Assembly (NCBI RefSeq): GCF_001750285.1
Contig: NZ_MAMP01000012.1
Span: forward strand, 353,751-393,750
Source of the DNA: Domibacillus iocasae
Lineage (GTDB): Bacteria > Bacillota > Bacilli > Bacillales > Domibacillaceae
Direction of reading: 5' to 3'
DNA length: 40,000 bases
Every line of letters starts with the position of its first letter. Within the stretch, counting starts at the first letter, position 1. Both the position numbers and the translations under genes were made by a program. The notes under the pieces are model-generated. The model did no database searches and was not told where the DNA came from. It saw only the letters and a program-made list of their open reading frames with translations. Positions 7,976 through 36,417 of the stretch are shown here, in pieces.

Positions 7976-8664
7976 GGGATTGTCAGCACCTGGCCAGGAT
8001 AGATCCATTTGCCTGGCTGCCGAATGTTCCGCTTATCGCGTTTGATGAGCATATCTTTGTTGGCATTCCAGATTTTTTTCCACTGTAAGCTGTCCTTGTA
8101 GATGTCTTTAGCAATGTTCCACAGTTCATCACCTTTTTTGACTTTGTACGTTTTCGGCTTTGTGGCTGCCTTTGGATCGGGCCGGTTCGAACTTGTCGTT
8201 GTTGGCTTTGCCGGTTTCTTTGTATCAATCTTTTTGTTTTTCACAAAAATATACGTATGCAGCGTGAGCGAATAATTCAGATCACCGATTGCGCCGCCGA
8301 CTTCATCATGAGGAAACTCCTCAATGGACACAGGGGAATTAATATTCGTGCCTGTCACAATAAAGCGGCACGGAAGCCCGCTGTCCCGCCATCGTTCAAT
8401 GATAGCGATATATTCCCGCGGCTTTAACACCTGTGAAGTTGGCATTTCAACCAAAGGCGTCGTGTAATGACGCGGAAAAAAAGACGAAAACGAAAACGTC
8501 TTCGCCCCTGTTTTCTGCAAAACGGTCGCTTCACCCAGATTAGGCAGATAAATTTTTTCATTATTGCTGGGACTGCTGAAATCAATAGATGAAGGCAGGA
8601 TAGGCAGGCGTATTTTTTCTTTGCCCTGTGACAACCAAAACTGATAAATGCTTTTTTTAGCCAT
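7972..8664 (-). CDS. LysM-domain tail protein (XkdP-like)
   Basis: The C-terminal sequence YKVKKGDELWNIAKDIYKDSLQWKKIWNANKDMLIKRDKRNIRQPGKWIYPGQVLTIP is a LysM motif. The gene lies directly after the tape measure gene. Confidence 0.8.
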   Translation of the reverse strand: MAKKSIYQFWLSQGKEKIRLPILPSSIDFSSPSNNEKIYLPNLGEATVLQKTGAKTFSFSSFFPRHYTTPLVEMPTSQVLKPREYIAIIERWRDSGLPCRFIVTGTNINSPVSIEEFPHDEVGGAIGDLNYSLTLHTYIFVKNKKIDTKKPAKPTTTSSNRPDPKAATKPKTYKVKKGDELWNIAKDIYKDSLQWKKIWNANKDMLIKRDKRNIRQPGKWIYPGQVLTIP

Positions 8665-11600
8665 CTACCGCCAAACCTCCCATCGCATTGTATTCTTCTT
8701 CGATTTTCTTTTCCACGGCTTTAACGGCAATCACGCCGACTTTTTCTGCATCCATATCGTTGTGATAATGGCTTTCGCCCATGATCTGCACAATGACATC
8801 CCGTACACTGCTTTTGACAGCTTGGACGCTTCTGCTCATGGCAGATTGTACGTTGTTCACTTGTTCAGTCGGCAATATTACTGGAGCACTTGCGGCTGCT
8901 ACCGGTGCCGACGAAACGCCCAAAGCGCTTTGTGCATAGTCAAGCAAGCCCAGGGCACGGCTTCGGTGTTGTTCGAGAGGGATAATAACCTCTTTCTTGT
9001 TGCCTTCCCCTACACGGGCAATGTGATCATGTGTGATAACACCGCCTCTTTCATAAGGCTTGTATCCGCCGCCATTCATCATGCTCTTAATACCTGGATG
9101 ATTCATCACACCGCCATACCGTGAATCCATGTAACGAATGGCTGCTAAAGCTGAATGAAGCGGATTGGTCCGATCATTGAAGCCACCGACTTTATGAGCA
9201 TTAAAGGTTGAGCCGATAATCTGGAACAATCCGACTGACGGATCGCCCCTTTGTGCGTTAATGTCCCAGTCATTTATCGCATTAGGGTTGAAACCGGACT
9301 CTTTCTGCGCAATGGTCATCAAAGGATTGAGTAAGCTCATCGGCTTTCCGAGCATCGCCAACGCCTGCATGATCGCTTGTGACGCCATACCTGCCCCGCC
9401 GCCGCCGAAATTGCCACTAAATGCTGTCATCAATTCATCAGCCTTACTTTTCGCAATGTTTGATACATCCACGCCGCTGAATCCTTTAACTACACCCATC
9501 GCGGACCAGTAACCGTTCTCTATCATTCTCTTTGCCGGCGATGCAATGCCTAGCTCTTGCCGGAATGCGGTATCAACTCTGTTTGCCAGATCTTTCGCCG
9601 CTTCTGTGACACTGCTTCCTTGGCTGTTCATTCCGGTGACGAAATAGCCAATCATGCCAGAACCCCAATCATAAGCTTTCGGAACGAATGCTCTTGTCGG
9701 TGTTTCTACATGGTTTCTCAGCCAAATACTCATGCCGACCGGAATCGCCTTGATGCCTTCTTTAAAGTTGTACACAAGAGCAGATCCATATGGCCGTGAT
9801 CCGGCTGCCGCTGAATTGAGTGGCTGATAAATTTCACTGCTGATCCAAGCTGTCATTTTCAGCGGCGATGTATTCAAACCGCTCATAAAGCCGTAAGCGA
9901 AGGCATAGCCATAATGGTTCGCACTTGTGGCTGCATTGCCCAGTGGCGCATACACTTTTTCCAGAAGCCAATTCGTCACCGTCACTGGTGCGGTATTCAG
10001 CCCCTGTGCAAATCCATAAGCAAAGGCATAGCCAAAGTGATTTGCGCTTATCGAAGCGTTGCCCGTTGGCGCATACACCTTTTCAGTAAGCCATCCCGTC
10101 ACATTGATTGGAGAAGTATTCATGCCTTGTACAAAACTGTATGAAAAGGCGTAACCAAAATGATTTGCGCTTGTCGCTGCATTTCCCATCGGTGCATAGA
10201 CTTTTGATGACAGCCATGTGACGACTGAAACTGTTGCCCCATTCAATCCATTAGAAAAATTCGTGGCAAAGGCTTTTCCATATGTGCTTCCTTTTTCAGA
10301 CAAGGCTTTTAACTCTTTTTCCACACCTGCAGTTACAGAGCCAGACGTTCCCGTGGCTGCTTCTTTCTTTTCACCACCGCCGAACATGCCGCCTATCCAG
10401 CTGCCGATCTTATCTCCGCCAAAATAGCCGAGTGCACCGCCTGCCAATGTGCCAAGCGGTCCGAGAAGTGAACCAGCTGCCGCTCCTGCCGCTGCTCCAC
10501 CAAATCCTCCGACAGCTCCTCCGATGGCTTGGTTTCGTTCCTGTCCCGCCTGTGAAGTGAAGATATCGTATGCAGCTATGCTGAGTCCCACTGGAAGAAC
10601 AGCTTTACCGAGTGTGCCGAGCATTTTGCCGCCCTTTCCGCCTTTGGTGGTTTTTCCTCCGCCAGTGCCGAAAATAGGGTTGTCCTTTGGCGCTTTAATT
10701 TTGAAGAGATCCTTCAATTTAGTGGACAAAGTACCGGTTGATTTTGCTCCATCCTTTGCCTTTCGATCCATCCTGCTCATGCTGTCCGTGACATCATCAA
10801 GCCCTTTTGTGCCGCCTTTCCCACCTTTTCCGCCTTTCAGACCTTTTACAAAGTCTAAAGCATCCCCCAATTTTTTAAGAGTAGGGATAACAACTAAAGC
10901 GCCCAAACCCAAAGCACCAATTGCTACTGTTCCAATACCAATGGCCGGACCAAGTATGTTAAAGTGATCGACACCGAATTGAATAGCTGGCACTAATTTG
11001 TCACTGAAAAAACCAGCAAAGTCGGAAATGGATGTGGTCATATCTTCAATCGCGGCTTTTCCTTCTGAAGATGAAAGCCATGTGTTCAGTTTCTCAGCAG
11101 CAGGAACCATACTGGTCAAGATCCCTACGCCCACATCGCTAATAGTTGACTTCAATTCCCGTCCGGCATCATTGATCGGTGTCATCGGATTGTTCTTCCG
11201 CATCGTATCAAACTGTTTGTTCAGTTCTCCTGTTGCTTTTGCCGGTTCGTTAACAGCTCCCGCCATATCCAGGATTGGCTGTTTAAGATCCTCGTATTTT
11301 GTCCCGATTAGCGTGGTTGCAATCGCTACTCTGTCCTGTTCATTCGTAATTTCAGATAATCCTTTAGCCATCCGGAACATGGCTTCCTGCCCTGTATACG
11401 AGCCATCTTCAAAGCCTTTAAACATTTTCTTCGCTTCATCAGCACCGAGAACCTTTTTGAATGCCGCCACTTGATCATCTGACATTTCGTTACGTTTCAA
11501 GTTGAATTCACGCATACTATCTGCCATATCGTCGAAATTCCGGGCGCCGCCTTTTGTTCCAGCCACAAAGGCAGCCGATACTTGTTCTGGTGCCATTTGC

Positions 11601-12442
11601 ATGTCCACAAAACTGGAAGAATACTCATTAAATGTGTCTAAAAGGTCCTCGTACTGATCCCCAGCATTCTTGAATACGTACGCAATGTTGTCACCAGCAC
11701 GGCCTGTATCCATGTCGAAGTTTTTTATCATGCTTCCTAATGCACGATCCACTTCCGGCACATCTTTTTGGTACAGCTGCGCGATTTGATTTGAGGTCAA
11801 TACGGCATTTTTCAAGCCATCGCCTTTTAGATCCGTCTGCTGTGCCATATTTTGAAAGGACATTGCCACTTCTTCACGAGAATTCCCAGTCTTTTGATTG
11901 TAAAAAATATCATTGACAACGCTATTCACACCACTGACAGACCTACCTGTAGTAGCGGCTGTTCGGGCATTCGTTTCCATTGCCGATGCAGCGCCTGCCA
12001 CAGCCATACCGCCTGCCAATCCAGTACCTGCCGTTATTTTCAAAGCAGTGTCTTGTAATCCCTGCAAACGAGCTTCAATATTGGAAATAGCAGCAGTCGC
12101 TTGATCATCGACGGACACTTTCGCTTCGGCATGTGTGCCGCTGATTCCTTTTGCTTTCTTTTGGATCGCATCCATTTTTGAAGATGCCTGGTCATTTACG
12201 GAAACAGTCGGCTTCGCATGAATCTTCCCCGCGGTACCTAAGTCATTCTTAATCGTTTTGATTTTTCCGGAAGCCCCATCAATCACCGAAAGAGTAGGGC
12301 TGGCTTTGGCTTGGTCTAAGCGATTGAGTGCTTTGCTGGATGCCTGTGTCACGGATTCTACTTTTTCCAGGCTGCCATGAAGCCCTTTAAGCTTGCTGGA
12401 TATATGGTCTTTCATTTCAAATGTTGCGGTTAATGTTGCCAA
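8657..12442 (-). CDS. Tail tape measure protein with Gly-zipper membrane segments and a C-terminal lytic transglycosylase (SLT) domain
   Basis: 1261 aa with a TTG start 7 nt after AAGGAGG. It is coiled-coil rich, with KGGKGGKGG and GGxxG runs. The SLT motif IAQKESGFNPNAINDWDINAQRGDPSVGLFQIIGSTF lies near the C-terminus. Confidence 0.9.
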   Translation of the reverse strand: MATLTATFEMKDHISSKLKGLHGSLEKVESVTQASSKALNRLDQAKASPTLSVIDGASGKIKTIKNDLGTAGKIHAKPTVSVNDQASSKMDAIQKKAKGISGTHAEAKVSVDDQATAAISNIEARLQGLQDTALKITAGTGLAGGMAVAGAASAMETNARTAATTGRSVSGVNSVVNDIFYNQKTGNSREEVAMSFQNMAQQTDLKGDGLKNAVLTSNQIAQLYQKDVPEVDRALGSMIKNFDMDTGRAGDNIAYVFKNAGDQYEDLLDTFNEYSSSFVDMQMAPEQVSAAFVAGTKGGARNFDDMADSMREFNLKRNEMSDDQVAAFKKVLGADEAKKMFKGFEDGSYTGQEAMFRMAKGLSEITNEQDRVAIATTLIGTKYEDLKQPILDMAGAVNEPAKATGELNKQFDTMRKNNPMTPINDAGRELKSTISDVGVGILTSMVPAAEKLNTWLSSSEGKAAIEDMTTSISDFAGFFSDKLVPAIQFGVDHFNILGPAIGIGTVAIGALGLGALVVIPTLKKLGDALDFVKGLKGGKGGKGGTKGLDDVTDSMSRMDRKAKDGAKSTGTLSTKLKDLFKIKAPKDNPIFGTGGGKTTKGGKGGKMLGTLGKAVLPVGLSIAAYDIFTSQAGQERNQAIGGAVGGFGGAAAGAAAGSLLGPLGTLAGGALGYFGGDKIGSWIGGMFGGGEKKEAATGTSGSVTAGVEKELKALSEKGSTYGKAFATNFSNGLNGATVSVVTWLSSKVYAPMGNAATSANHFGYAFSYSFVQGMNTSPINVTGWLTEKVYAPTGNASISANHFGYAFAYGFAQGLNTAPVTVTNWLLEKVYAPLGNAATSANHYGYAFAYGFMSGLNTSPLKMTAWISSEIYQPLNSAAAGSRPYGSALVYNFKEGIKAIPVGMSIWLRNHVETPTRAFVPKAYDWGSGMIGYFVTGMNSQGSSVTEAAKDLANRVDTAFRQELGIASPAKRMIENGYWSAMGVVKGFSGVDVSNIAKSKADELMTAFSGNFGGGGAGMASQAIMQALAMLGKPMSLLNPLMTIAQKESGFNPNAINDWDINAQRGDPSVGLFQIIGSTFNAHKVGGFNDRTNPLHSALAAIRYMDSRYGGVMNHPGIKSMMNGGGYKPYERGGVITHDHIARVGEGNKKEVIIPLEQHRSRALGLLDYAQSALGVSSAPVAAASAPVILPTEQVNNVQSAMSRSVQAVKSSVRDVIVQIMGESHYHNDMDAEKVGVIAVKAVEKKIEEEYNAMGGLAVDG
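9602..10216 (-). repeat. Five tandem 123-nt (41-aa) in-frame repeats inside the tape measure gene
   Basis: WL(S/T/L)xK(V/I)YAP.GNA..SANH(F/Y)GYAF.Y.F..G(M/L)NT.P... recurs. The anchoring Trp codons sit at 10216, 10093, 9970, 9847 and 9724, exactly 123 nt apart. The fifth copy is degenerate. Confidence 0.8.
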
Positions 12443-14477: not shown

Positions 14478-15842
14478 TTAGCGTACTGTTACGCCGAAAT
14501 AGAATTTCTCTGCGGCGTCCACCGGCTGAGCGCCAATGTTGATGAAAAAGCCATCTGCATCTGTATTCAATGTAATCTGAATGTCCGTTGACGAATCAAA
14601 ATTCTGCAAAGCGCCGCCTTCTTGCAAAGTATTCATGTACAAAGTAGCGGCTGTGTGGATAATCTGCATCCCATCGCCATTTGCCGGAATATCCGAACCT
14701 GCATCTTTTTTCGCCTTGATCAGTGCCTTGACTTCACGGATCAAATCGTTTTGAATGCCATCCAGGATGCGGATGATCTTGTTTTTCTGGAACCGCTTGT
14801 CTTTTGTTGCACTTAATGTGACAAGTGAGTTAATGTCTTTTTCGACTGATACCGTTCTGTCAGCTGGATCGTATGTCAACATGAAATCACCGTTTTTCAG
14901 ACCGATGATTGTTTCGTCGTTATCGAAGCGAGGAGATACATCGACAGCCCCTTCGTATTCAACGAATGTGAGTGATTGATACATCGTTGCGCCTGCGCTT
15001 GCACCCGCGACCCATGCCACTGTTTGAGCAGGAGTTAAAGTTTCGCCAGTAGCCAAAACAGCGCCATTGGTAACGTTTGTGACTCCTTCATAATCACTTG
15101 CATAGTTAGATAACACGGCACGTACTTTCCGGCCATGTTCTTCCCGAAGGCGTCTGATGAAGGAAACGAACGTTGCTTTCAGCTCATCATTTGCTGTCAC
15201 CGGTAATCCGATTGTGTCAAACTGTGCATTTTCGGCAGCCGTTAAGAAATCCGTGTATTCAAGGTTTGTAACAGTGCCATCAGTGCCGCCGGTTAATGTG
15301 ACACCTGCAGTAGCAACTAAATCGGCCGTACCTGCGAAAATAGCCCATTCATTCGCTTTTAACTCAGCGGCTGTTGTGACTGTCTGCTTATCCACCAATT
15401 GCGTCCCTGCAAACGTAGAAACATCAAATTTCGTTGAATCTAATACATTAACTTGCACAACGACTTTGATTGTATTGCCGATGACCCCACCATGCAACGC
15501 TGTCGCTGTCACGGCTGTTGTGCCCGTGCCTGCCACTGCTAATTGACCAGTTGCCTTCGTTCCCTCATTCAAGCGGTAGACAAGGACAGTCTGGCTTTTC
15601 TTTTTCGCTTCCCGAATGAGAAGGACAGACGCATGGTCAAGATCCACCCCAAGCTTTTTCTGAAAATCGCCTTCATCGGTGATTTCAATAAACGATTTTG
15701 CCTGCCCCCATGATAAAGAGACAGGAAGGGCAACTCGTCCGCTGTTTCCTGCTGCTAAACGGTTTTGTGCCGCTGATTTAAACAGAAAATACATACCAGC
15801 CCGTGCTTTTTCAACGCCTTCTGTAAATGTTCCGCTGTTCAT
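14478..15842 (-). CDS. Contractile tail sheath protein (XkdK-like)
   Basis: 454 aa. The N-terminus GTFTEGVEKARAGMYFLF..., the size and the synteny with the tube gene support the call. Confidence 0.9.
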   Translation of the reverse strand: MNSGTFTEGVEKARAGMYFLFKSAAQNRLAAGNSGRVALPVSLSWGQAKSFIEITDEGDFQKKLGVDLDHASVLLIREAKKKSQTVLVYRLNEGTKATGQLAVAGTGTTAVTATALHGGVIGNTIKVVVQVNVLDSTKFDVSTFAGTQLVDKQTVTTAAELKANEWAIFAGTADLVATAGVTLTGGTDGTVTNLEYTDFLTAAENAQFDTIGLPVTANDELKATFVSFIRRLREEHGRKVRAVLSNYASDYEGVTNVTNGAVLATGETLTPAQTVAWVAGASAGATMYQSLTFVEYEGAVDVSPRFDNDETIIGLKNGDFMLTYDPADRTVSVEKDINSLVTLSATKDKRFQKNKIIRILDGIQNDLIREVKALIKAKKDAGSDIPANGDGMQIIHTAATLYMNTLQEGGALQNFDSSTDIQITLNTDADGFFINIGAQPVDAAEKFYFGVTVR

Positions 15843-27550: not shown

Positions 27551-27925
27551 GTGAAAATTTTGGAAGAAACAACTTTTTATAATAACCGAGGCAAACCCGT
27601 CGCTTATACTCAAGATGAAACTTATATTTATCTGTTCTCTGGAAAACCAGTTGGATATTTTGATCAGGATTCCATCTTTTCTTTTTCAGGCAAACATCTT
27701 GGTCGTTATAATAATGGTTGGGTTAGAGATAATAGTGGAAAATGTGTGTTTTTTACCGTTAATGCATCTGGCTCAGGTCCTGCTAAACCCGCTAAATCAG
27801 CCAAACCGGCAAAAGGCGCTAAATCAGCTAAGCCTGCTAAAGGAGCTAAGCAAGCACGCCCTGCAAGACCAGCTAATAGTCTGAGCTGGTCTAGTTTATC
27901 TTTCGAATGGTTCTTCAATCAGTAA
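27551..27925 (+). CDS. 4-fold beta-flower-like protein with an Ala/Lys/Pro-repeat C-terminal tail
   Basis: There are four internal repeats of (S/R)GK(P/H/C)(V/L)(A/G/F)(Y/R/F): RGKPVAY, SGKPVGY, SGKHLGR, SGKCVFF. These are followed by PAKPAKSAKPAKGAKSAKPAKGAKQARPARPA (DNA 27778-27872). The start is uncertain: GTG 27551, or TTG 27560, which has better RBS spacing. Confidence 0.55.
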   Translation: MKILEETTFYNNRGKPVAYTQDETYIYLFSGKPVGYFDQDSIFSFSGKHLGRYNNGWVRDNSGKCVFFTVNASGSGPAKPAKSAKPAKGAKSAKPAKGAKQARPARPANSLSWSSLSFEWFFNQ

Positions 27926-29075: not shown

Positions 29076-29570
29076 TTATGAAACTAAAAAAAGGCTGCCG
29101 TTTTTTCTAACTTCAATTTTCTGCTCTGCTCGTTCTAAGTACGTCTGGACAGATGACTTAGTAAGCCCTAATAATTCTGCCGTATACTCGAATGTGATTC
29201 CTTCCGCTTTAATCAATGTAAATACATCTTTTTCCCTCGTTGTTAAATCCCCAAGCACATCATCCAGCAACCATTTCTCATCAGCTGTCAGCTTTCTTTC
29301 TTCGCTGGCCACAATTCGATTCGGAACAACAGCTTCAATCAGTTTCGGATCCAACGTATAAGCCCCTGTCCGATCAGCCCCGCGTCTTGCATCCGGATTC
29401 CGGCCGGACACCATCCACTGAATAGCAAATTCCACTTCGCTGATCATGCTGTTAATGAGCGTCTTATCCTGGAGGTCCTGTTCCAACAATTCCGGTTTGG
29501 CTTCGATGGCTGCCTTCACTTCCTTCAGCGCTCGTAATGATTGTTTGTATTCGTAAATGAGTGTCCGCAT
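29076..29570 (-). CDS. Sigma-70-like late gene activator (Xpf-like)
   Basis: The C-terminal sequence LTTREKDVFTLIKAEGITFEYTAELLGLTKSSVQTYLERAEQKI is a sigma region-4 HTH. Size and position upstream of the packaging genes match PBSX xpf. ATG 29570 is preferred over the track TTG at 29600, which lies in the terminator T-run. Confidence 0.7.
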   Translation of the reverse strand: MRTLIYEYKQSLRALKEVKAAIEAKPELLEQDLQDKTLINSMISEVEFAIQWMVSGRNPDARRGADRTGAYTLDPKLIEAVVPNRIVASEERKLTADEKWLLDDVLGDLTTREKDVFTLIKAEGITFEYTAELLGLTKSSVQTYLERAEQKIEVRKNGSLFLVS

Positions 29571-29596
29571 GTTTATTCCCCATTTCTTTTTATTAA

Positions 29597-29651
29597 GCAA
29601 ATAAAAAAGGACACCAAACAGCGCACGATTTTTCGTGTCTGTTCAGTGTCC
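29597..29651 (-). terminator. Strong intrinsic terminator immediately upstream of the sigma-like gene
   Basis: A 43-nt imperfect hairpin spans 29609-29651 (GGACAC..AACAG..CACG / CGTG..CTGTT..GTGTCC). It is followed on the minus strand by TTTTTTATTT. Confidence 0.7.
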
Positions 29652-31220: not shown

Positions 31221-31499
31221 TTAATTGAATCCCCACTGCTTCTTCGCCATTTCCAAGCGTTCCGGCGTTAAATCCTGATACTTCGCTAAAATGTGTTCAT
31301 CACTTAATCCTTTTTCCATAAACCGCATGTATTGTGCTTTACTCAAATTTCCGTTCGAATTAACTGTGCGCTTTGGCCGCTCCTGCTTCTTCATGTTTCG
31401 TAAATAAGCAGGCAATTTTGATTCAAACTTTTCTGCGCAATAGGCTTTTACTTCTTCTGGCGTCCACTGCTGCTCAATTACTGCTCCATGGTATGCCAT
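31221..31499 (-). CDS. Hypothetical phage protein (92 aa)
   Basis: Track ORF. It overlaps the upstream gene by 22 nt. No family recognised. Confidence 0.55.
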   Translation of the reverse strand: MAYHGAVIEQQWTPEEVKAYCAEKFESKLPAYLRNMKKQERPKRTVNSNGNLSKAQYMRFMEKGLSDEHILAKYQDLTPERLEMAKKQWGFN

Positions 31500-31771
31500 T
31501 TTTGTTTTCCTCCCGTCAGTTCTTCAAAACATTCCTTATTCTTCGTAAGAAGCGCCAGATCAATAAGCACTGTTTTGTCCTGATACTCATTAAGCAAATT
31601 ATCTGCTGGTTGCAGACGGTATGATTCAAACAGCGCACGAGTTGGCACCAGCCATTTCAGTTCACCATCTTTGACACTGGCCACTCTCTTTATTTCCACT
31701 TGACCCCCGTAGAGGGTAATTGTTGTGATATAGCCGATTACAATATCATCACCTACTGCGACAGAGCCCAC
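31478..31771 (-). CDS. IDEAL-domain-like protein
   Basis: The C-terminal sequence VLIDLALLTKNKECFEELTG resembles the IDEAL motif. The GTG start lies almost inside GGAAGGAG, so the exact start is uncertain. Confidence 0.5.
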   Translation of the reverse strand: MGSVAVGDDIVIGYITTITLYGGQVEIKRVASVKDGELKWLVPTRALFESYRLQPADNLLNEYQDKTVLIDLALLTKNKECFEELTGGKQKWHTMEQ

Positions 31772-31906: not shown

Positions 31907-32077
31907 ATGCTACCAATTGAACTTTTCGGATGGATCATATCATTTCTTTTAATGGTCAGCTTTATTGGTTCATTAGTGTTCGTATCAAGAAAGCCCACAT
32001 TGTTTTCGAAATCGGAATACGATTCACCGCAAAATAATAATCAAAATCCCGAACGAAAAGGTAAACAATTTTATTAA
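31907..32077 (+). CDS. Small single-TM membrane peptide (56 aa)
   Basis: MLPIELFGWIISFLLMVSFIGSLVFVSRKPTLFSKSEYDSPQNNNQNPERKGKQFY. A strong AAGGAGG RBS is present, and a terminator follows immediately. Confidence 0.5.
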   Translation: MLPIELFGWIISFLLMVSFIGSLVFVSRKPTLFSKSEYDSPQNNNQNPERKGKQFY

Positions 32078-32100
32078 AGCGCTTATAGCGCTTTTATTTC
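32077..32100 (+). terminator. Intrinsic terminator
   Basis: AAGCGCT-TAT-AGCGCTT followed by TTTATTT. Confidence 0.6.
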
Positions 32101-32156
32101 GTCTTCATATTCCATTATTAAGCTAAAGAATACTTACATCTAGGAGTGACATCACA

Positions 32157-32399
32157 ATGGATTTTGACACCATCAAAGACAAACTTGAAGCTCTTTGTTG
32201 CTACAATAATATTCGTATTACCTATTCATTCGATAAGGACAAACACCCTTATTTAAAGGCACAATGCAAAAATGGTACAGAAACAATACAGGTAAGGATT
32301 CTCTCCAATAATGAATTAATCGAATTTGATTCAATTGAAAAAGCAGCTTCTGCCATAGAAATGCTACTTCAGACTGAACCTCTTGAAGACATCTCCTAA
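32157..32399 (+). CDS. Hypothetical protein, paralog A of a two-member small-protein family
   Basis: 80 aa. It shares M.F..IK..LE......I.Y.F....HP......KN....IQ.........E........AAS.I..L with the ORF at 32859-33077. Confidence 0.6.
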   Translation: MDFDTIKDKLEALCCYNNIRITYSFDKDKHPYLKAQCKNGTETIQVRILSNNELIEFDSIEKAASAIEMLLQTEPLEDIS

Positions 32400-32422
32400 A
32401 ATGACACAGCACCAGATTTATT

Positions 32423-32451
32423 CAGCCAAGTACCAATTGCTTGGCTGTTTT
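32423..32451 (+). terminator. Hairpin/terminator after paralog A
   Basis: CAGCCAAG-N9-CTTGGCTG followed by TTTT. Confidence 0.45.
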
Positions 32452-32494
32452 CCACCGAAAACACAACTTCTTTTATCCTTCAGGCTCACCCCTT

Positions 32495-32716
32495 TTAAAA
32501 TGGTTTCATTTGTTCAAAAAACGCTGGTTCTTCTTGCTTATCAAAAATGTCCTCTTCAATGACTTGATCTGATACGGTTTCTATATTTTCGATTTTGGTC
32601 TCCAGCTCTATTAAGTCGAAATGTTCAAACCAGTGAACCGGATAACAGGCAAGCACCCTTTTTAAATCGTCTGTTTCGTAAACATCAACGAGCAGTTCAT
32701 ACCCATATTCCAGCAT
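32495..32716 (-). CDS. Highly acidic small protein (73 aa)
   Basis: MLEYGYELLVDVYETDDLKRVLACYPVHWFEHFDLIELETKIENIETVSDQVIEEDIFDKQEEPAFFEQMKPF. ATG 32716 lies 7 nt after AAAGGAGTG. The longer track start lacks an RBS. Confidence 0.55.
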   Translation of the reverse strand: MLEYGYELLVDVYETDDLKRVLACYPVHWFEHFDLIELETKIENIETVSDQVIEEDIFDKQEEPAFFEQMKPF

Positions 32717-32858
32717 CTCAAGCACTCCTTTATGACGTGATATGGACGTACTGTTTAGCAGTCTCATGATTGTGGTACATTTACTACTAAATACATTCAT
32801 TGGATTTCTTTCGACTTTTTTTAGTCCCTTTCCTCTGGTGAGAAAGGAGGAAAATGAA

Positions 32859-33077
32859 ATGTCCTTTGAGAGTATAAAGATGTTGTTAGAGTTTATGCAG
32901 CATCATAGGAGTACTGAAATCATTTATACTTTCAAAAATAACAACCATCCTGTAGCTATAGTTAGTTTGAAAAACATTGGTATAATACAAATTATATTTT
33001 CTCAACTGCCACATGAAATCAGCTACTACCATGATGCAGATGAAGCTGCATCTGTTATCGACAAACTAATAAATTAA
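32859..33077 (+). CDS. Hypothetical protein, paralog B (72 aa)
   Basis: ATG 32859 follows AAAGGAGGAAAATGAA. The track start at 32742 would add a hydrophobic, RBS-less extension overlapping the convergent gene. Confidence 0.6.
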   Translation: MSFESIKMLLEFMQHHRSTEIIYTFKNNNHPVAIVSLKNIGIIQIIFSQLPHEISYYHDADEAASVIDKLIN

Positions 33078-33091
33078 AAGTTTTTTATACT

Positions 33092-33122
33092 AACTCCTTT
33101 GAAATTTCAGAGGAGTTTTTTA
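33092..33122 (+). terminator. Intrinsic terminator after paralog B
   Basis: AACTCCTTTGA-AATT-TCAGAGGAGTT followed by TTTTT. Confidence 0.65.
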
Positions 33123-33283: not shown

Positions 33284-33377
33284 ATTCTTTCCTCGTTCAC
33301 AATTTCGTTCTAATGTTGAGTATTAATTTTTTTTATTGTGGTAAAATTATTTAGAAACGGTTAGGAGGCAGTTCTAT

Positions 33378-34217
33378 TTGAGTGTATATTTAAACGATCA
33401 GTATGTTGTTGACATCTCGAACAAAATATTGAGTCTGCGGGACCAGTTGATTAAGGAAAAAGCTAATCTGGACAGCAATCAAGTCCATGCAAACATTGAA
33501 AAGCATTTAAAAAGCTGGCGTAAAAATCTTGTTGAAATTTACGCTTATTCTATTTCAAGAGATATGGACGCCACATTCAGTATTTTGAGGGAATGGGGAG
33601 ACGAAGCTGTCGATACTCTGGTGAATCTGAATCTGCCCCTGGATATTGCGCTTGATGAAGTGCGGGATTATCGGAACCTAATCGGTCTTATCATTAAAGA
33701 TGAAGCCATTAAATACGATTTATCCTTTGATCAATTTTATGAGATCCTTTCACGGTTTGGTGCCGTGGTGGACCGGGCTGTTCACTGGCTTAGCATGTCT
33801 TATACAAGAAAATTCCTTACCCGTATCAATGCTGCAGAAGCAGTCGCTCTGGAATTATCAATACCTGTCATTAAAGTAGCTGAGACTGTCGGCGTTCTTC
33901 CTTTAATAGGAGACATTGACACGAAAAGAGCACAGGAACTAATGGATAAAGCCATGGCAAAAAGCAGTGAATTGTCTTTAGAATATATCGTTATAGACTT
34001 ATCAGGCGTTCCCATCATCGATACCATGGTAGCAGATCGAATATTCAAAGTTATAAACGGTCTTTCTCTTTTAGGGATTAAAGCATTACTGACAGGGATC
34101 AGACCCGAGATTGCCCAAACCATGATTAACTTAGGCGTCAATGTCAACACTTCAGATATCCCCGTCTATTCCTCTCTGCAAAAAGCTTTGAAAAGTTTAC
34201 GAGTGGAGAGCCTTTGA
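33378..34217 (+). CDS. RsbR-family stressosome sensor paralog (N-terminal helical sensor domain plus C-terminal STAS domain)
   Basis: 279 aa with a TTG start 9 nt after TAGGAGG. The C-terminal half ELSIPVIKVAETVGVLPLIGDIDTKRAQELMDKAM...YIVIDLSGVPIIDTMVADRIFKVINGLSLLGIKALLTGIRPEIAQTMINLGV closely follows the RsbRA-RD STAS consensus. This includes both Thr positions (DTKRA, IDTMVA) that I recall as RsbT phosphorylation sites. Confidence 0.8.
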   Translation: MSVYLNDQYVVDISNKILSLRDQLIKEKANLDSNQVHANIEKHLKSWRKNLVEIYAYSISRDMDATFSILREWGDEAVDTLVNLNLPLDIALDEVRDYRNLIGLIIKDEAIKYDLSFDQFYEILSRFGAVVDRAVHWLSMSYTRKFLTRINAAEAVALELSIPVIKVAETVGVLPLIGDIDTKRAQELMDKAMAKSSELSLEYIVIDLSGVPIIDTMVADRIFKVINGLSLLGIKALLTGIRPEIAQTMINLGVNVNTSDIPVYSSLQKALKSLRVESL

Positions 34218-34245
34218 TTTTCTGAATCAAAAGGTAATTTACAAG

Positions 34246-34285
34246 CACGAGTGAAGAGTTGTCTTTCACTCGTGTTTTTGCTTTT
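34246..34285 (+). terminator. Strong intrinsic terminator after the RsbR-like gene
   Basis: CACGAGTGAA..TTCACTCGTG stem (10+ bp), followed by TTTTTGCTTTT. Confidence 0.75.
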
Positions 34286-34378
34286 AGACGAACTGTTGAG
34301 TAACTAGCTACTGTCGTACTCAAGACTGTACCAGTTTTTTTATAGTGAGTTTTCAACACTTCAAAACTTCTGAACGGT

Positions 34379-34591
34379 TCATGCCGCATCACCGCCTGTT
34401 TTTTCTTCCGCTTCAAGCCGAGCCTCTGCTTCTTCCAAGTGCTTTTTAAAAGCCGCGTCTTTTGCCTGCTGCTCTATTTCGCTTAATGGCTTATGCCCTG
34501 GCTTCGGCTGAAACATGTACATGCCTGATCCCTGATATGTTACTTGGCGTACACTGCTGCTTTGTAAAATGATTGCATCTTGATTAGCCAT
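34379..34591 (-). CDS. Hypothetical phage protein (70 aa)
   Basis: Track ORF. It overlaps the stop of the loader gene by 8 nt and is the last gene of the early operon. Confidence 0.55.
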   Translation of the reverse strand: MANQDAIILQSSSVRQVTYQGSGMYMFQPKPGHKPLSEIEQQAKDAAFKKHLEEAEARLEAEEKTGGDAA

Positions 34592-35537
34592 GCTTTCTCA
34601 GCCTCCAGTCCTGACCTTCTGCATCCATCAGGAATTTATATTTTTCATCACTGCACTGCCCGATTAGCCGGCTGGCGGCTGCATACCCGATCTTGTCTGC
34701 CAATGTGCCTCGGTCTTCGTTGCTGTTAAAAATAATCGGCATCTGCTTGCGGTACCGTTCATTAATGATTTGGTAATACATCGTTTCCCGCGCTTCCGTC
34801 CAGCTTGATTTACCGATGTCATCCCAGATCAGCACATCTGCATCGAGTGCCGGCCCGAGAACCCGGTTCAGCTGTTCACCCTCGTCGCCTGCCCGTTTTG
34901 CCTGCATCAGCTCGTTAATGAAAACTGCATCTGAGACAACCAGCACCCGGAAGCCTTCTTTCAGTAACAGCTTTGAAATCGCAATTTGCAGGTGTGTTTT
35001 GCCAATACCAAAATTGTTATGTTGGTTCTTGATTCCAGCCCGATCAGCAGCCGGTAATTCTTTTAACCGCTGTTCACCCACTGAAGCAATAAGACCGAAA
35101 TTATACGATGGAATGATCTTTTTCTTACGGCCTTCATTGTCGGTACCGATACGGAATAAATTCACATAATCAAGCGCCATCTTTTTCATGTCCAGCTGAT
35201 ATCTCGCGTTTGTGGCATAGTTTTCAAAATTCGCTTTCTGGAACTCGTCTGGGATCATCGACTGCTTAAAGCGGCGCTTCCATGCCTTCTGATCCTTGCA
35301 TTCGCAAAAAGTGGCGAAATCCTGCAGAACCTCTTTTCCATTTTGCATCACCGGTCTTTTACGAAAAATCAATTCTGTGTCTTTACAGATCGGGCATTCA
35401 TATTGCGCATCATCCGCCCCAGGCATTTCGAGCGGCTTCGATGTCTCGGAAGAGCTGCTCTTTTGATTTGCCTTTGCTTGCAGATCCGCCATTACGTCCG
35501 CGATACTGGTGAATCGGGGTTGTTCCGGTTTCGCCAT
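34584..35537 (-). CDS. DnaC/IstB-like helicase loader ATPase (YqaM-like) with an N-terminal Cys-rich (zinc-binding-like) region
   Basis: YECPICKD...FCECKD is the Cys cluster. NFGIGKTHLQIAI is a degenerate Walker A, and DVLIWDDIG is Walker B. ATG 35537 is taken as the start (AAAGGAG 10 nt upstream). Later starts at 35492 or 35426 are possible. Confidence 0.7.
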   Translation of the reverse strand: MAKPEQPRFTSIADVMADLQAKANQKSSSSETSKPLEMPGADDAQYECPICKDTELIFRKRPVMQNGKEVLQDFATFCECKDQKAWKRRFKQSMIPDEFQKANFENYATNARYQLDMKKMALDYVNLFRIGTDNEGRKKKIIPSYNFGLIASVGEQRLKELPAADRAGIKNQHNNFGIGKTHLQIAISKLLLKEGFRVLVVSDAVFINELMQAKRAGDEGEQLNRVLGPALDADVLIWDDIGKSSWTEARETMYYQIINERYRKQMPIIFNSNEDRGTLADKIGYAAASRLIGQCSDEKYKFLMDAEGQDWRLRKHG

Positions 35538-36417
35538 GTGGGTTCCGCTCCTTTTCTTGATTTTCAATGTGCCGGTCTAATAAAATCGGCAGGCAGTAAC
35601 CAAAGCTATTAATCTTGTCCCTAGAATGTTTAGGGTGATATTCCGCGAATATTTGTTCAAGCCATTCAAGCGTTTTGTTAACATCAATATCATGAGCAAT
35701 TAGCTCCAAAATGTAATTCCGATCTTTCGTGTTAACATCAAATCCACCTATGTTGGCCAGAGTCATATATCGATCACGTATCTGCATATAAGCGTTTGAA
35801 GAGTTGCCTGGTATTTGCCCCACACTTCCAGTGGACAGCTGAGCATTTTCGGTTGTAGGCACCCCGCCAGTTGGTTCTTCGTGCGCGTTATTAGCAGCAG
35901 TATTGTATTTAATATTGTTTTTAATCTTTCTTTTATGGGTGGCGGATTGCCCACTAGCACTAGGGGGTATTTCGCCACTACTACTAGGGGGCATTTCGCC
36001 ACTACTACTAGGGGGCATTTCGCCACTACTACTAGGGGGCATTTCGCCACTAGTGTCATCTTGACCACTAGTAGGCAAAACGCCACTACCTTTATAATTT
36101 TTGACGGTCCACTCTTCATAGTTTTTATTAAAAGAAACAATTTTTGTTTTTGTAGTAGACCCTGGATTCATCTCCAGAATCACTTTATTCTGAATAAGTG
36201 TTTTTAACGCTTCACTTACTCGTTTACGCTCCAGATGTGTGACAGACTCGATGTACGAAAGAGAAAACTCGCATTCTTTTCGGTTCCATCCGTATGTGTT
36301 CCGCCACAAGGCCATCAGCAGCTTATATTGATTTTGCGTAAATTGAAAATGCTGAATCACATCCAGAATCTCGTTGGCAATCTTGGTGTATCCGTGCTCC
36401 AGCTGGACATCCGCCAC
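35410..36417 (-). CDS. Replisome organiser (phage replication protein O-like N-terminal wHTH plus DnaD-like C-terminal domain; YqaL-like)
   Basis: The start is GTG after GAGGAGG. The N-terminal sequence GYTKIANEILDVIQHFQFTQNQYKLLMALWRNTYGWNRKECEFSLSYI is the Phage_rep_org_N pattern. The repeat-encoded linker is (SGEMPPSS)x3-4. The C-terminal domain is helical. Confidence 0.75.
   Translation of the reverse strand: MADVQLEHGYTKIANEILDVIQHFQFTQNQYKLLMALWRNTYGWNRKECEFSLSYIESVTHLERKRVSEALKTLIQNKVILEMNPGSTTKTKIVSFNKNYEEWTVKNYKGSGVLPTSGQDDTSGEMPPSSSGEMPPSSSGEMPPSSSGEIPPSASGQSATHKRKIKNNIKYNTAANNAHEEPTGGVPTTENAQLSTGSVGQIPGNSSNAYMQIRDRYMTLANIGGFDVNTKDRNYILELIAHDIDVNKTLEWLEQIFAEYHPKHSRDKINSFGYCLPILLDRHIENQEKERNPHGETGTTPIHQYRGRNGGSASKGKSKEQLFRDIEAARNAWGG
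35960..36055. repeat. Four tandem 24-bp direct repeats (candidate origin iterons) inside the replisome organiser gene
   Basis: CTAGGGGG(T/C)ATTTCGCCACTACTA occurs at 35960, 35984, 36008 and 36032, with the last copy diverging at its 3' end. A nearly pure A/T stretch at 35901-35936 lies adjacent. Confidence 0.6.

What the first reader, a model, noticed from the sequence alone, without database searches (positions are those of the whole stretch)
33378..34285. Prophage-encoded RsbR-type stressosome sensor (STAS) paralog
The 279-aa plus-strand gene has the two-domain architecture of the Bacillus RsbRA-RD stressosome co-antagonists. The N-terminal half is helical and sensor-like. The C-terminal STAS domain follows the RsbR consensus almost residue by residue (LPLIGDIDTKRAQELM, VIDLSGVPIIDTMVA, LTGIRPEIAQTMINLGV). 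Both Thr positions that I recall as RsbT-kinase targets are retained. The gene is antisense to the phage backbone, has its own RBS and a strong terminator, and lies in a 2.6-kb accessory island between the replication and late-regulation genes. No rsbS/rsbT partner is encoded nearby, so it would have to insert into the host stressosome. That would let the prophage add or bias an input into SigB activation. Alternatively the prophage could use stressosome output as an induction cue.
Basis: partly seen in the sequence, partly recalled or inferred. Interest (0 to 1): 0.8.

Follow-up and report, generated by a model that had tools for sequence, protein, structure and literature searches.

The report
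Prophage-carried RsbR stressosome subunit gene
A dormant virus in the soil bacterium Domibacillus iocasae carries its own well-preserved copy of RsbR, a building block of the bacterial stress-signalling complex (the stressosome); similar copies sit in the same place in at least two unrelated viruses of related bacteria, which suggests that these viruses adjust how their host decides between stress defence and spore formation.

Summary
Window 33378-34217 (+) encodes a 279-aa protein with a non-heme sensor-globin N-domain, a long linker helix and an RsbR-type STAS domain. The best solved match is Listeria stressosome RsbR (E 6e-25). All three RsbT-target threonines are retained (T182, T216, T248). 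The gene lies inside a contractile-tailed prophage of Domibacillus iocasae, between the replication genes and a late sigma-like gene. It is antisense to the backbone, with its own extended -10 box, RBS and terminator. No rsbS/rsbT-like gene is in the window.

New findings:
- The gene with its signals is a discrete cassette: 94% nt identity to another Domibacillus prophage, against 75-88% or none in the flanks.
- It is under purifying selection (dN/dS 0.36, p=0.003).
- RsbR-type genes occupy the same slot and orientation in unrelated prophages of Rossellomorea marisflavi and Cytobacillus oceanisediminis, while most family members are chromosomal.
- In related prophages the gene directly upstream is Sda or a Spo0E-like protein, both sporulation-initiation inhibitors.
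- Only 1 of 2.9 million IMG/VR contigs carries the motif, and I found no published report.

The most likely function is a lysogeny-expressed extra RsbR subunit that joins the host stressosome and retunes sigma-B signalling. That step is inferred, not shown.

The parts
33299..34303 (+). Conserved moron cassette: promoter region, RsbR-type gene and terminator
   Evidence: This 1015-bp block is 94% identical in nucleotides to the Domibacillus sp. A3M-37 prophage (L009 9913-10926) and to L010, while the flanking phage DNA is 75-88% identical or unrelated.
33339..33347 (+). Putative extended -10 promoter element TGgTAAAAT (inferred)
   Evidence: It lies 39 nt upstream of the start codon. Equivalent TGaTATAAT and TGtTATAAT boxes lie 38-40 nt upstream in the other phage-borne copies, while chromosomal relatives have weaker TGnTACCAT/TACCCT boxes. 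The strict -35/-10 scan found no canonical site, and no SigB-type promoter was found.
33363..33368 (+). Ribosome-binding site AGGAGG, 9 nt before the TTG start
   Evidence: Read directly from the sequence.
33378..34217 (+). RsbR-type gene, 279 aa, TTG start
   Evidence: It is 100% identical to the D. iocasae protein P0001.
33378..33854 (+). N-terminal non-heme sensor-globin domain (helices 7-19, 21-31, 38-60, 63-83, 88-112) plus the long linker helix (117-159)
   Evidence: The AF2 domain model has pLDDT 88 and pTM 0.82. Foldseek matches globin-coupled sensor domains at TM 0.57-0.65, the RsbR N-domain 2bnl at 0.50-0.59, and pXO2-61/pXO1-118 at 0.71-0.81.
33855..34217 (+). RsbR-type STAS domain with T182, T216 and T248
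   Evidence: Pfam PF01740 covers residues 164-270. Listeria RsbR matches at E 6e-25. Foldseek gives 7b0u RsbR at E 7e-12 and RsbS 6jhk at TMt 0.90. The threonines are retained in all nine sequences compared.
34243..34287 (+). Intrinsic terminator (14-bp stem, 7-nt loop, T-run)
31907..33077 (+). Other plus-strand accessory ORFs in the same island: a 56-aa hydrophobic peptide (31907-32077) and two paralogous small proteins (32157-32399 and 32859-33077)
   Evidence: ORFs. Terminators at 32076-32094 and 33092-33117. The two small proteins are paralogs (32% identity, E 9e-8). No Pfam, PHROG or PADLOC match.
29076..29600 (-). Late sigma-like regulator, marking the left boundary of the accessory region
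   Evidence: Sigma70_r4_2 at E 3e-9. It is 88% identical in nucleotides to the equivalent L009 gene.
34584..36417 (-). Replication module (DnaC-like loader and DnaD/O-like initiator), marking the right boundary
   Evidence: PHROG 50 at E 3e-47 and PHROG 16826 at E 4e-43.

Best explanation
The gene is a lysogenic-conversion 'moron': a host-derived RsbR paralog (a stressosome RsbT co-antagonist) carried by a temperate contractile-tailed phage of Domibacillus iocasae. It is transcribed from its own sigma-A-type extended -10 promoter, antisense to the lytic genes, so it is probably made in the lysogen (inferred). Its STAS domain is 66-74% identical to those of chromosomal and other phage-borne relatives and keeps all RsbT-target threonines. 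It therefore most likely co-assembles with host RsbS and the resident RsbR paralogs into the stressosome core and is phosphorylated by RsbT (inferred). In B. subtilis the RsbR paralogs are largely redundant within the stressosome, and substitutions in RsbRA retune the timing and size of the sigma-B response. [quoted passage not shown] Related prophages place an Sda or Spo0E-like sporulation-initiation inhibitor immediately upstream of the RsbR gene, and sigma-B itself blocks sporulation through Spo0E in B. subtilis. The selective benefit may therefore be control over the lysogen's choice between stress response and sporulation (speculative).

Shown: the identity, architecture, prophage location, cassette structure, recurrence and purifying selection. 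Not shown: expression, assembly with RsbS/RsbT, and any phenotype.
For: RsbR identity: Listeria RsbR at E 6e-25, against RsbS at 1e-11 and SpoIIAA-type at 0.1 or worse. Foldseek of the full-length model gives Listeria innocua stressosome RsbR as top hit (E 7e-12, 285 aligned columns). The N-domain has the sensor-globin fold, including RsbRA 2bnl. T182, T216 and T248 are retained (PMC8942246).

Prophage location.

Discrete cassette: 94% nt identity against 75-88% in the flanks. Terminator; extended -10 boxes in all phage copies.

Selection: dN/dS 0.36 (17 synonymous, 22 nonsynonymous, binomial p=0.003). R. marisflavi prophage copies differ by 5-6 synonymous and 0 nonsynonymous changes. L018 vs L022 gives about 0.05 (with dS saturated) and L022 vs L024 gives 0.20.

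Recurrence in the same slot and orientation: Domibacillus A3M-37 (L009) and D. tundrae (L021); Bacillus sp. Leaf406 / R. marisflavi prophages with different head and packaging modules (L015-L019); and a C. oceanisediminis SPP1-like prophage (L022). Chromosomal relatives are stand-alone genes (L001-L007, L011-L014, L026-L028).

Sda sits directly upstream in L009 and L021 (E 3e-14). A Spo0E-like gene sits directly upstream in L022 and L023.

Literature: RsbR paralogs share one stressosome through their conserved C-terminal domains, and SigB induces spo0E and blocks sporulation (PMC7522486). RsbRA substitutions tune the response (PMC11821858).
Against: There is no direct evidence of expression, assembly or phenotype. 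The only support is indirect: a chromosomal-looking RsbR paralog in D. robiginosus. The window's own island has no Sda or Spo0E gene, so the sporulation link rests on relatives. The direction of any effect on sigma-B (raised or lowered) cannot be predicted. B. subtilis cells without stressosomes still respond to stress through RsbT (PMC11821858), so one more RsbR subunit might have only a subtle effect. The dN/dS of 0.36 in the Domibacillus lineage is only moderate constraint and rests on 39 substitutions.
Confidence: 0.55

Rival explanations
1. Decoy or titration. The phage RsbR acts outside the normal complex, or poisons it. It would sequester RsbT or RsbS, or compete for whatever ligand or signal the N-domain binds, and so mainly damp or block sigma-B activation. 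This would resemble how the plasmid-encoded stand-alone globin sensor domains pXO1-118 and pXO2-61 of B. anthracis control sporulation.
For: The N-domain model superimposes best on pXO2-61 and pXO1-118 (TM 0.71-0.81, rmsd 2.5 A), which are cytoplasmic proteins that control sporulation (PMC8396549). The near-consensus extended -10 promoters in the phage copies, against weaker boxes in chromosomal copies, suggest higher expression. RsbR proteins are by definition co-antagonists of RsbT.
Against: Unlike pXO1-118 and pXO2-61, the protein keeps a complete, highly conserved STAS domain with all its phospho-acceptor threonines. That argues for participation in the normal phosphorylation cycle rather than simple titration. 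The Foldseek E-values for the pXO hits are weak (0.2-1), and the fold is shared with RsbRA itself.
Confidence: 0.2
2. Passenger gene. It is a host RsbR paralog picked up by illegitimate recombination and carried along with no adaptive role for phage or lysogen.
For: The family is mostly chromosomal. The gene sits in the hypervariable moron slot where phages accumulate cargo. Phage-borne copies are very rare in IMG/VR (1 contig in 2.9 million).
Against: Purifying selection acts in every phage lineage. The ORF is intact, with conserved promoter, RBS and terminator, and the cassette is better conserved than the flanking phage DNA. It recurs in at least three unrelated phage backbones and two RsbR subfamilies. 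D. iocasae holds three copies. The nearest chromosomal relative is only 65-67% identical, so the capture is not recent.
Confidence: 0.12
3. Phage-internal partner switching. The STAS protein would regulate the prophage's own sigma-like late regulator, or couple host stress to prophage induction, rather than act on host sigma-B.
For: A sigma-70 region-4 protein is encoded about 3.8 kb away in the window (29076-29600). A sigma-70 family gene lies directly next to the copy on the C. firmus plasmid. STAS proteins are classic partner-switching components.
Against: No anti-sigma kinase of the RsbW/SpoIIAB or RsbT type is encoded in the window. The STAS is RsbR-type and scores far below the cut-offs for RsbV/SpoIIAA-type antagonists (TIGR00377 20 bits against 53; TIGR02886 13 against 115). 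The gene is transcribed away from the late genes and is terminated independently.
Confidence: 0.08

Closest known systems
RsbR paralogs of the Bacillus/Listeria stressosome (B. subtilis RsbRA, RsbRB, RsbRC, RsbRD; Listeria RsbR1)
   Same: The length (about 275 aa) and architecture match: a non-heme globin-type N-domain, a linker helix and a C-terminal STAS. The RsbR-specific STAS motifs are present, as are the threonines equivalent to RsbRA T171/T205 and RsbR1 T175/T209/T241. Like RsbRB-RD, the gene stands alone, unlinked to rsbS/rsbT (PMC7522486, PMC8942246).
   Different: It is encoded on a prophage in a moron cassette with its own promoter and terminator. It is only about 26% identical overall to Listeria RsbR in the structural alignment. 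Its N-domain belongs to a subfamily without a characterised member. Assembly with RsbS/RsbT is untested.
pXO1-118 / pXO2-61 of Bacillus anthracis (plasmid-encoded non-heme globin sensor domains that control sporulation; PDB 3pmd, 3pmc)
   Same: These are also mobile-element-encoded copies of a host signalling sensor domain with the same non-heme sensor-globin fold, and they give the best structural superposition of the N-domain (TM 0.71-0.81). Both cases concern the choice between stress response and sporulation.
   Different: pXO1-118 and pXO2-61 are stand-alone sensor domains with no output domain, and by my own recollection of the literature they relate to a sporulation histidine kinase. 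The protein here carries a full STAS output domain and belongs to the RsbR family. Sequence identity is only about 6%.
Phage- and prophage-encoded regulators of Bacillus development (for example Rap-Phr cassettes on phi3T/SPbeta-like phages, and phage-encoded sporulation sigma-factor homologs); cited from my own knowledge, not checked here
   Same: These are host-derived signalling genes carried as accessory cargo by Bacillus phages, thought to bias host stress, dormancy or sporulation decisions. The Sda and Spo0E-like genes next to the RsbR gene in related prophages fit this theme.
   Different: They act on the Spo0A phosphorelay or on RNA polymerase. None is a stressosome subunit. I found no report of a phage-borne RsbR.
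YtvA (blue-light LOV-STAS stressosome component)
   Same: The linker and STAS region are homologous (NCBIfam NF052652 matches residues 150-271 at E 1e-22; PDB 2mwg at E 2e-14).
   Different: There is no LOV/PAS domain, and the score of 80.6 bits is far below the 250-bit family cut-off. By my recollection YtvA lacks the phospho-acceptor threonines.
STAS-like protein of Stenotrophomonas phage DLP4 (BIT20_67)
   Same: This is the only published mention I found of a phage gene linked to the stressosome (PMC6469090).
   Different: It is a small hypothetical protein assigned by an I-TASSER fold match to an RsbS-type STAS (3ZTA). It has no sequence-level RsbR similarity and no N-terminal sensor domain, and its host is a Gammaproteobacterium.

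Membership tests
RsbR family (stressosome RsbT co-antagonists) | C-terminal STAS domain of the RsbR subtype (closer to RsbR than to RsbS, RsbV or SpoIIAA) | tested here: met
   PDB phmmer gives RsbR at 6e-25, RsbS at 1e-11, and TM1442/SpoIIAA-type at 0.1 or no hit. Foldseek top hit is 7b0u RsbR. Pfam STAS at E 1.8e-15.
RsbR family (stressosome RsbT co-antagonists) | N-terminal helical non-heme globin-type domain joined to STAS by a long helix | tested here: met
   AF2 models have pLDDT 82 (full length) and 88 (N-domain). Foldseek matches sensor globins and the RsbRA N-domain 2bnl at TM 0.50-0.65. There is no His in helix 88-112, so a non-heme domain is inferred from the sequence only.
RsbR family (stressosome RsbT co-antagonists) | Threonine phospho-acceptors equivalent to RsbRA T171/T205 (Listeria RsbR1 T175/T209) | tested here: met
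   T182 and T216 align to T175 and T209. T216 is invariant and T182 is at least 90% conserved in 57 homologs. T182, T216 and T248 are present in all nine sequences compared. Site numbering is from PMC8942246.
RsbR family (stressosome RsbT co-antagonists) | Assembles with RsbS into the stressosome core, binds RsbT and is phosphorylated by it | not testable with these tools
   This needs co-purification, cryo-EM or kinase assays.
RsbR family (stressosome RsbT co-antagonists) | The host genome encodes the partners RsbS and RsbT (and sigma-B) | not testable with these tools
   The D. iocasae genome could not be reached. There is no partner in the window. The only indirect support is the RsbR paralog in D. 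robiginosus and chromosomal paralogs in the other hosts, for example P0090 in the same R. marisflavi genome as L019.
Single-domain anti-sigma-factor antagonists (RsbV/SpoIIAA type) | A stand-alone STAS protein of about 110 aa that matches the ant_ant_sig / spore_II_AA models | tested here: not met
   The protein has two domains and 279 aa. TIGR00377 scores 20.4 bits against a cut-off of 53.45, and TIGR02886 scores 13.3 against 114.75.
YtvA family photoreceptors | N-terminal LOV/PAS domain and a full-length match to NF052652 | tested here: not met
   Only profile positions 124-243 (linker plus STAS) match, at 80.6 bits against a cut-off of 250. Pfam finds no PAS domain.
Phage moron (lysogenic-conversion cargo gene) | An autonomous transcription unit (own promoter and terminator) inside a prophage, in a variable region, usually antisense to the backbone, with a mosaic distribution among related phages | tested here: met
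   Terminator and extended -10 box (the promoter is inferred, not shown). The gene is on the plus strand against a minus-strand backbone. The cassette is 94% conserved within divergent flanks. The same layout occurs in L009, L015-L019 and L022.
Stand-alone globin sensor-domain sporulation inhibitors (pXO1-118/pXO2-61 type) | A sensor-globin domain only, with no output domain | tested here: not met
   The fold matches (TM 0.71-0.81), but the protein carries a complete STAS output domain.
Known anti-phage defence systems (PADLOC) | A match to any PADLOC-DB model | tested here: not met
   No hit at E <= 0.01 for the RsbR protein or for five neighbouring accessory proteins.

The most novel reading that the evidence does not exclude
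Temperate phages of spore-forming Bacillaceae have repeatedly captured stressosome RsbR subunits: at least two RsbR subfamilies on three unrelated phage backbones. They deploy them from the same moron slot, often in tandem with Sda or Spo0E-type inhibitors, as a phage-controlled input into the host's sigma-B and sporulation decision circuit. A prophage would then rewire the composition of a 1.8-MDa host signalling hub to keep its lysogen out of, or steer it into, dormancy.
Probability: 0.35. Interest if true: 0.8.

Novelty: new variant of a known kind. Interest (0 to 1): 0.66.

Why it matters
RsbR paralogs are the variable 'turrets' of the stressosome, and what they actually do is still debated: sensing or tuning (PMC11821858). 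A version that phages have captured and kept under selection is a natural experiment. It implies that adding one RsbR subunit changes host behaviour enough to matter to a phage, and it provides a compact, portable paralog that can be moved into B. subtilis strains carrying one RsbR or none to see what it changes. Its adjacency to Sda and Spo0E-like genes ties phage cargo to the sigma-B/Spo0A cross-talk that governs the choice between stress resistance and sporulation. This extends the known set of phage manipulations of Bacillus development (Rap-Phr cassettes, sporulation sigma factors) to the general stress response. It also shows that stressosome subunits move horizontally on phages as well as on plasmids (Priestia and Cytobacillus plasmids).

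Tried and rejected
- Exact-sequence look-ups of the three D. iocasae copies (P0001, P0004, P0007) found nothing. The genome-contig scan did not return any Domibacillus genome. I therefore could not place the other two copies or check the host for rsbS/rsbT.
- A megablast of 20 kb of the window against 50,697 phage records found nothing.
- The tblastn hits in 'Listeria phage LM 4-11-1/4-14-1' records are fragmentary, unannotated contigs at 27-31% identity. I judged them to be host-DNA contigs carrying ordinary chromosomal rsbR paralogs, not phage genes, but did not verify this further.
- The literature hit for C. difficile phage phiCDIF1296T was a text artefact ('RS_BridgeMapper'). The coral-probiotic paper only lists a chromosomal RsbRC.
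- I searched for a SigB-type promoter (GTTTaa-N12-15-GGGtAt), which would have implied feedback, upstream of all copies. None was found. The strict sigma-70 scan also found no canonical -35/-10 pair upstream of the gene.
- I looked for Sda, Spo0E-like and RsbT-like genes in the window. None was found.
- The PADLOC defence models gave no match.
- I considered a partner-switch with the phage's own sigma-like factor and rejected it as the main reading, because there is no kinase and the STAS subtype is wrong.
Listeria RsbR and B. subtilis RsbS, YtvA and the RsbRA N-domain from the PDB served instead.
Full report
**1. The observation**

Window 33378-34217 (+) is an open reading frame of 279 codons with a TTG start. 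An AGGAGG box at 33363-33368 lies 9 nt upstream. A strong intrinsic terminator follows, with a 14-bp stem at 34243-34277 and a T-run. The translation is 100% identical to an NCBI-annotated 279-aa protein of Domibacillus iocasae on a 402-kb contig (P0001), so the window comes from that genome. Pfam finds one STAS domain at residues 164-270 (E 1.8e-15).

**2. It is RsbR-type, not generic STAS**

A sequence search of all PDB chains ranks Listeria stressosome RsbR first (278 aa, E 6e-25). The alignment runs from residue 67 to 257, so it extends into the N-terminal half. The next matches are:
- Vibrio RsbR (1e-22)
- YtvA (2e-14)
- RsbS (1e-11)
- Moorella RsbS (9e-6)

Single-domain antagonists are marginal or absent (TM1442 at 0.099; no hit for SpoIIAA or RsbV). 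The NCBIfam models for anti-sigma antagonists score far below their cut-offs. The YtvA model matches only its linker and STAS part (80.6 bits against a cut-off of 250).

T182 and T216 align with Listeria RsbR1 T175 and T209. One PDB entry in that alignment is the Thr-to-Ala variant at exactly that first position. These residues correspond to B. subtilis RsbRA T171/T205, the RsbT phosphorylation sites (PMC8942246; PMC7522486). T248 corresponds to the third Listeria site, T241. T216 is invariant and T182 is at least 90% conserved across 57 homologs. All three threonines are present in every phage-borne, plasmid-borne and chromosomal copy I compared.

**3. Structure**

An AlphaFold2 model built from a 57-sequence alignment has mean pLDDT 81.6. 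It shows six helices (8-19, 21-31, 37-60, 63-83, 88-112 and a long 117-159 helix) followed by an alpha/beta STAS domain. Foldseek against the PDB gives full-length RsbR from the Listeria innocua stressosome as top hit (7b0u, E 7e-12, 285 aligned columns). RsbS follows (6jhk, target TM 0.90).

A domain-only model of residues 1-150 has pLDDT 88 and pTM 0.82. It matches these structures:

| Structural match | TM-score |
|---|---|
| Globin-coupled sensor domains (BpeGReg, DosC, AfGcHK) | 0.57-0.65 |
| B. subtilis RsbR N-domain (2bnl) | 0.50-0.59 |
| B. anthracis plasmid proteins pXO2-61 and pXO1-118 (3pmc, 3pmd) | 0.71-0.81 (rmsd 2.5 A) |

The pXO proteins give the best superposition. The PDB describes them as sporulation inhibitors, and they are cited as cytoplasmic proteins that control sporulation (PMC8396549). 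The Foldseek E-values for all N-domain hits are weak (0.02-1), so this is fold-level similarity only. The N-domain is thus a sensor globin of the kind found in RsbRA, most likely non-heme.

**4. Context**

The window is a contractile-tailed prophage read on the minus strand. From left to right it carries:
- holin (366-917)
- baseplate wedge, tail/lysin and tape measure (8657-12442)
- sheath (14478-15842) and head protease
- portal, TerL and TerS
- a sigma-70 region-4 late regulator (29076-29600)
- the accessory region
- the DnaC-like loader, DnaD/O-like initiator, RecT, RecE-like exonuclease and an HTH regulator

The RsbR gene lies on the opposite strand, between the replication module and the late regulator. 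The window has no second STAS gene, no RsbT-like kinase, and no Sda or Spo0E.

The island is not purely antisense. Two minus-strand ORFs within it have DNA matches in a related prophage. It also holds a 56-aa hydrophobic peptide and two paralogous small proteins on the plus strand.

**5. Relatives, and what they show**

*(a) Other copies in Domibacillus.* D. iocasae holds two further copies, at 95% (same contig) and 96% (another contig). I could not retrieve their contexts.

*(b) A discrete cassette.* The 92%-identical gene of Domibacillus sp. A3M-37 also lies in a phage region with terminase, XtrA, a sigma-like gene, RusA and an HTH regulator (L009). The best-conserved DNA between the two prophages is exactly the gene with its upstream and downstream signals (33299-34303, 94% identity). 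The flanks are 75-88% identical or unrelated. This makes it a discrete moron cassette.

*(c) Mostly chromosomal family.* The nearest chromosomal relatives, in Rossellomorea, Mesobacillus, Cytobacillus and Bacillus sp. at 55-69% identity, are stand-alone genes among ordinary chromosomal genes.

*(d) A second phage lineage.* A second RsbR subfamily is also phage-borne. Its STAS domain is 66-68% identical to the window protein, but its N-domain is only 33-35% identical. In Bacillus sp. Leaf406 (the only IMG/VR hit) and four Rossellomorea marisflavi genomes, a 274-aa gene sits on the plus strand. It lies just past the DnaB-helicase/G39P/RecT replication module and before the late activator, HNH, terminase, portal and capsid genes. 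The prophages involved have different packaging and head modules.

*(e) A third phage backbone.* In Cytobacillus oceanisediminis a 275-aa member lies in the same slot and orientation of an SPP1-like siphovirus prophage (L022). A close relative lies on a C. firmus megaplasmid next to a sigma-70 family gene and IS21 elements. A 76-77% relative is chromosomal (L026-L028). Within this subfamily the two phage copies are no closer to each other (73%) than to the chromosomal copy (74-77%). The tree and identity matrix therefore suggest at least two, and probably three, independent captures.

*(f) Rarity.* A degenerate DNA scan for GVP[IV][IV]DTMVA across 2.9 million IMG/VR contigs hit only the Leaf406 prophage. 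An alignment-based scan gave the same result. No record in the INPHARED phage collection holds a close homolog. The phenomenon is real but rare.

**6. Selection and expression signals**

| Comparison | Result |
|---|---|
| Window vs L009 | dN/dS 0.36 (17 synonymous, 22 nonsynonymous; binomial p=0.003) |
| R. marisflavi prophage copies | 5-6 synonymous, 0 nonsynonymous changes |
| L015 vs L018 | dN/dS 0.14 |
| L022 vs L024 | dN/dS 0.20 |
| L018 vs L022 | dN/dS about 0.05, with dS saturated |

All phage-borne copies carry an extended -10 element 38-40 nt upstream of the start codon: TGgTAAAAT in the window, TGaTATAAT in the Rossellomorea prophages, and TGtTATAAT in Cytobacillus. Chromosomal relatives show weaker TGnTACCAT/TACCCT boxes, and no copy has a SigB-type promoter. 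These are consensus matches, not evidence of activity. Together with the antisense orientation and the private terminator, they fit a gene expressed in the lysogen independently of the lytic programme.

**7. The neighbour theme**

In Domibacillus sp. A3M-37 and D. tundrae, the gene directly upstream of the RsbR gene is an Sda homolog (PF08970, E 3e-14). In C. oceanisediminis it is a Spo0E-like protein (PF09388, with the SQxLDELI signature).

By my own knowledge, Sda inhibits the sporulation kinases. Spo0E dephosphorylates Spo0A~P, and in B. subtilis sigma-B induces spo0E and thereby blocks entry into sporulation (PMC7522486). The window's own island lacks both genes. Still, two different inhibitors of sporulation initiation recur immediately upstream of phage RsbR genes in different phage lineages. 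That suggests the cargo slot is devoted to steering the host's choice between stress response and sporulation. This is an inference from four loci, not a statistical result.

**8. Mechanism**

*Best-supported reading (confidence about 0.55).* The gene is a lysogeny-expressed extra RsbR paralog. It joins the host stressosome through its conserved STAS domain and is phosphorylated by RsbT on T182/T216. By changing the paralog mix, it shifts the threshold or dynamics of sigma-B activation. In B. subtilis the RsbR paralogs are expressed from unlinked genes and share one complex through their conserved C-terminal domains (PMC7522486). Point changes in RsbRA retune rather than abolish the response (PMC11821858). 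A single added subunit could therefore plausibly have an effect.

*What is shown:* the identity, the architecture, the prophage location, the cassette structure, the recurrence and the selection.

*What is inferred:* expression in the lysogen, assembly into the stressosome, phosphorylation, and any effect on sigma-B or sporulation.

*Rival readings:*
- a decoy or titration role similar to pXO1-118/pXO2-61
- a neutral passenger gene (argued against by the selection and the recurrence)
- a partner-switch acting on the phage's own sigma-like factor (argued against by the lack of a kinase and by the STAS subtype)

**9. Main gap**

I could not check whether D. iocasae encodes RsbS, RsbT and SigB. 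The other host species do carry chromosomal RsbR paralogs. For example, P0090 lies on the same R. marisflavi chromosome as the L019 prophage. D. robiginosus has a 57%-identical paralog next to chromosomal genes, although an integrase-arm fragment lies nearby.

**10. Novelty**

Full-text searches returned no report of a phage-borne RsbR. The terms tried were RsbR+prophage, stressosome+phage, STAS domain+prophage+sigB, and phage-encoded+RsbT. The nearest mention is a small STAS-like hypothetical protein in Stenotrophomonas phage DLP4, assigned by fold prediction only (PMC6469090).

The protein itself is a new member of a known family. Its carriage and recurrence on temperate phages, in a slot shared with Sda or Spo0E-like genes, is a new variant of the known theme of phages carrying host developmental regulators. 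Interest is moderately high (0.66). The sequence-level finding is solid and directly testable, but the functional claim is still inferred.

Noticed in passing
L009 9730-9873 (+); L021 2699-2848 (+): An Sda (sporulation inhibitor A, PF08970, E 3e-14) gene sits immediately upstream of the RsbR-type gene in the Domibacillus sp. A3M-37 and D. tundrae elements. It lies in a roughly 600-bp insertion that the window lacks.
   Followed up: partly
L022 9683-9841 (+); L023 804-962 (+); L005 about 8550-8672: A Spo0E-like aspartyl-phosphatase gene (PF09388, SQTLDELI motif) sits directly upstream of the RsbR-type gene in the C. oceanisediminis SPP1-like prophage. A 44%-identical Spo0E-like ORF also lies about 1.3 kb upstream of a chromosomal RsbR paralog in Peribacillus deserti.
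   Followed up: partly
L005 10937-11335 (-): A 132-aa RsbT-like kinase (HATPase_c_2; ISELxRN and GPGI motifs) lies directly downstream of the chromosomal RsbR paralog in Peribacillus deserti, and another STAS protein lies about 3.6 kb further on. This may be a second stressosome-like module.
   Followed up: no
Not in the window: D. iocasae proteins P0004 (BA724_16365, 190-kb contig) and P0007 (BA724_02085, same 402-kb contig as the window): The same genome holds two additional copies of the gene, 95-96% identical to the window copy. This suggests several related prophages or a duplication. Their contexts could not be retrieved.
   Followed up: partly
window 35951-36052: A 24-bp tandem repeat (4.2 copies, 96% matches) lies inside the DnaD/O-like replication initiator gene (35410-36417, minus strand). 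It encodes an SGEMPPSS peptide repeat and may be an iteron-like origin or a variable linker.
   Followed up: no
window 32157-32399 (+) and 32859-33077 (+): Two paralogous small proteins (80 and 72 aa, 32% identity, E 9e-8) lie on the antisense strand of the island, the second followed by its own terminator (33092-33117). They have no Pfam, PHROG or PADLOC match. A 56-aa hydrophobic peptide (31907-32077), also with a terminator, precedes them.
   Followed up: partly
window 27551-27925 (+): A second antisense cargo gene encodes a '4-fold beta flower' protein (PF21784, E 1.5e-38). It lies between the small terminase gene and the late regulatory genes.
   Followed up: no
L016 992-8565: In one R. 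marisflavi genome, the late and structural half of the prophage next to the RsbR gene is replaced by a reverse transcriptase (RVT_1), a SLATT_5 protein, a PIN_12 protein and a PAS protein. This looks like a defence-type island abutting the retained RsbR cassette and replication module.
   Followed up: no
L024 (C. firmus plasmid NZ_CP085391.1, 33896-34723) and Priestia plasmids: RsbR-type genes are also plasmid-borne. One lies on a 347-kb C. firmus megaplasmid next to a sigma-70 family gene, a MEDS-domain gene and IS21 elements. Homologs at 41-48% identity occur on 54 Priestia megaterium/aryabhattai plasmid records.
   Followed up: partly
window 34584-35567 (-) and 35410-36417 (-): The mechanically called DnaC-like and DnaD/O-like ORFs overlap by 158 nt. 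The true start of the DnaC-like gene is probably further downstream in the ORF (for example the ATG of MAKPEQ, 10 codons in, or a later one).
   Followed up: no
window 31478-31771 (-): A 97-aa ORF has a sub-threshold IDEAL-domain match (PF08858, 19.4 bits against a cut-off of 22). Its function is unknown.
   Followed up: no
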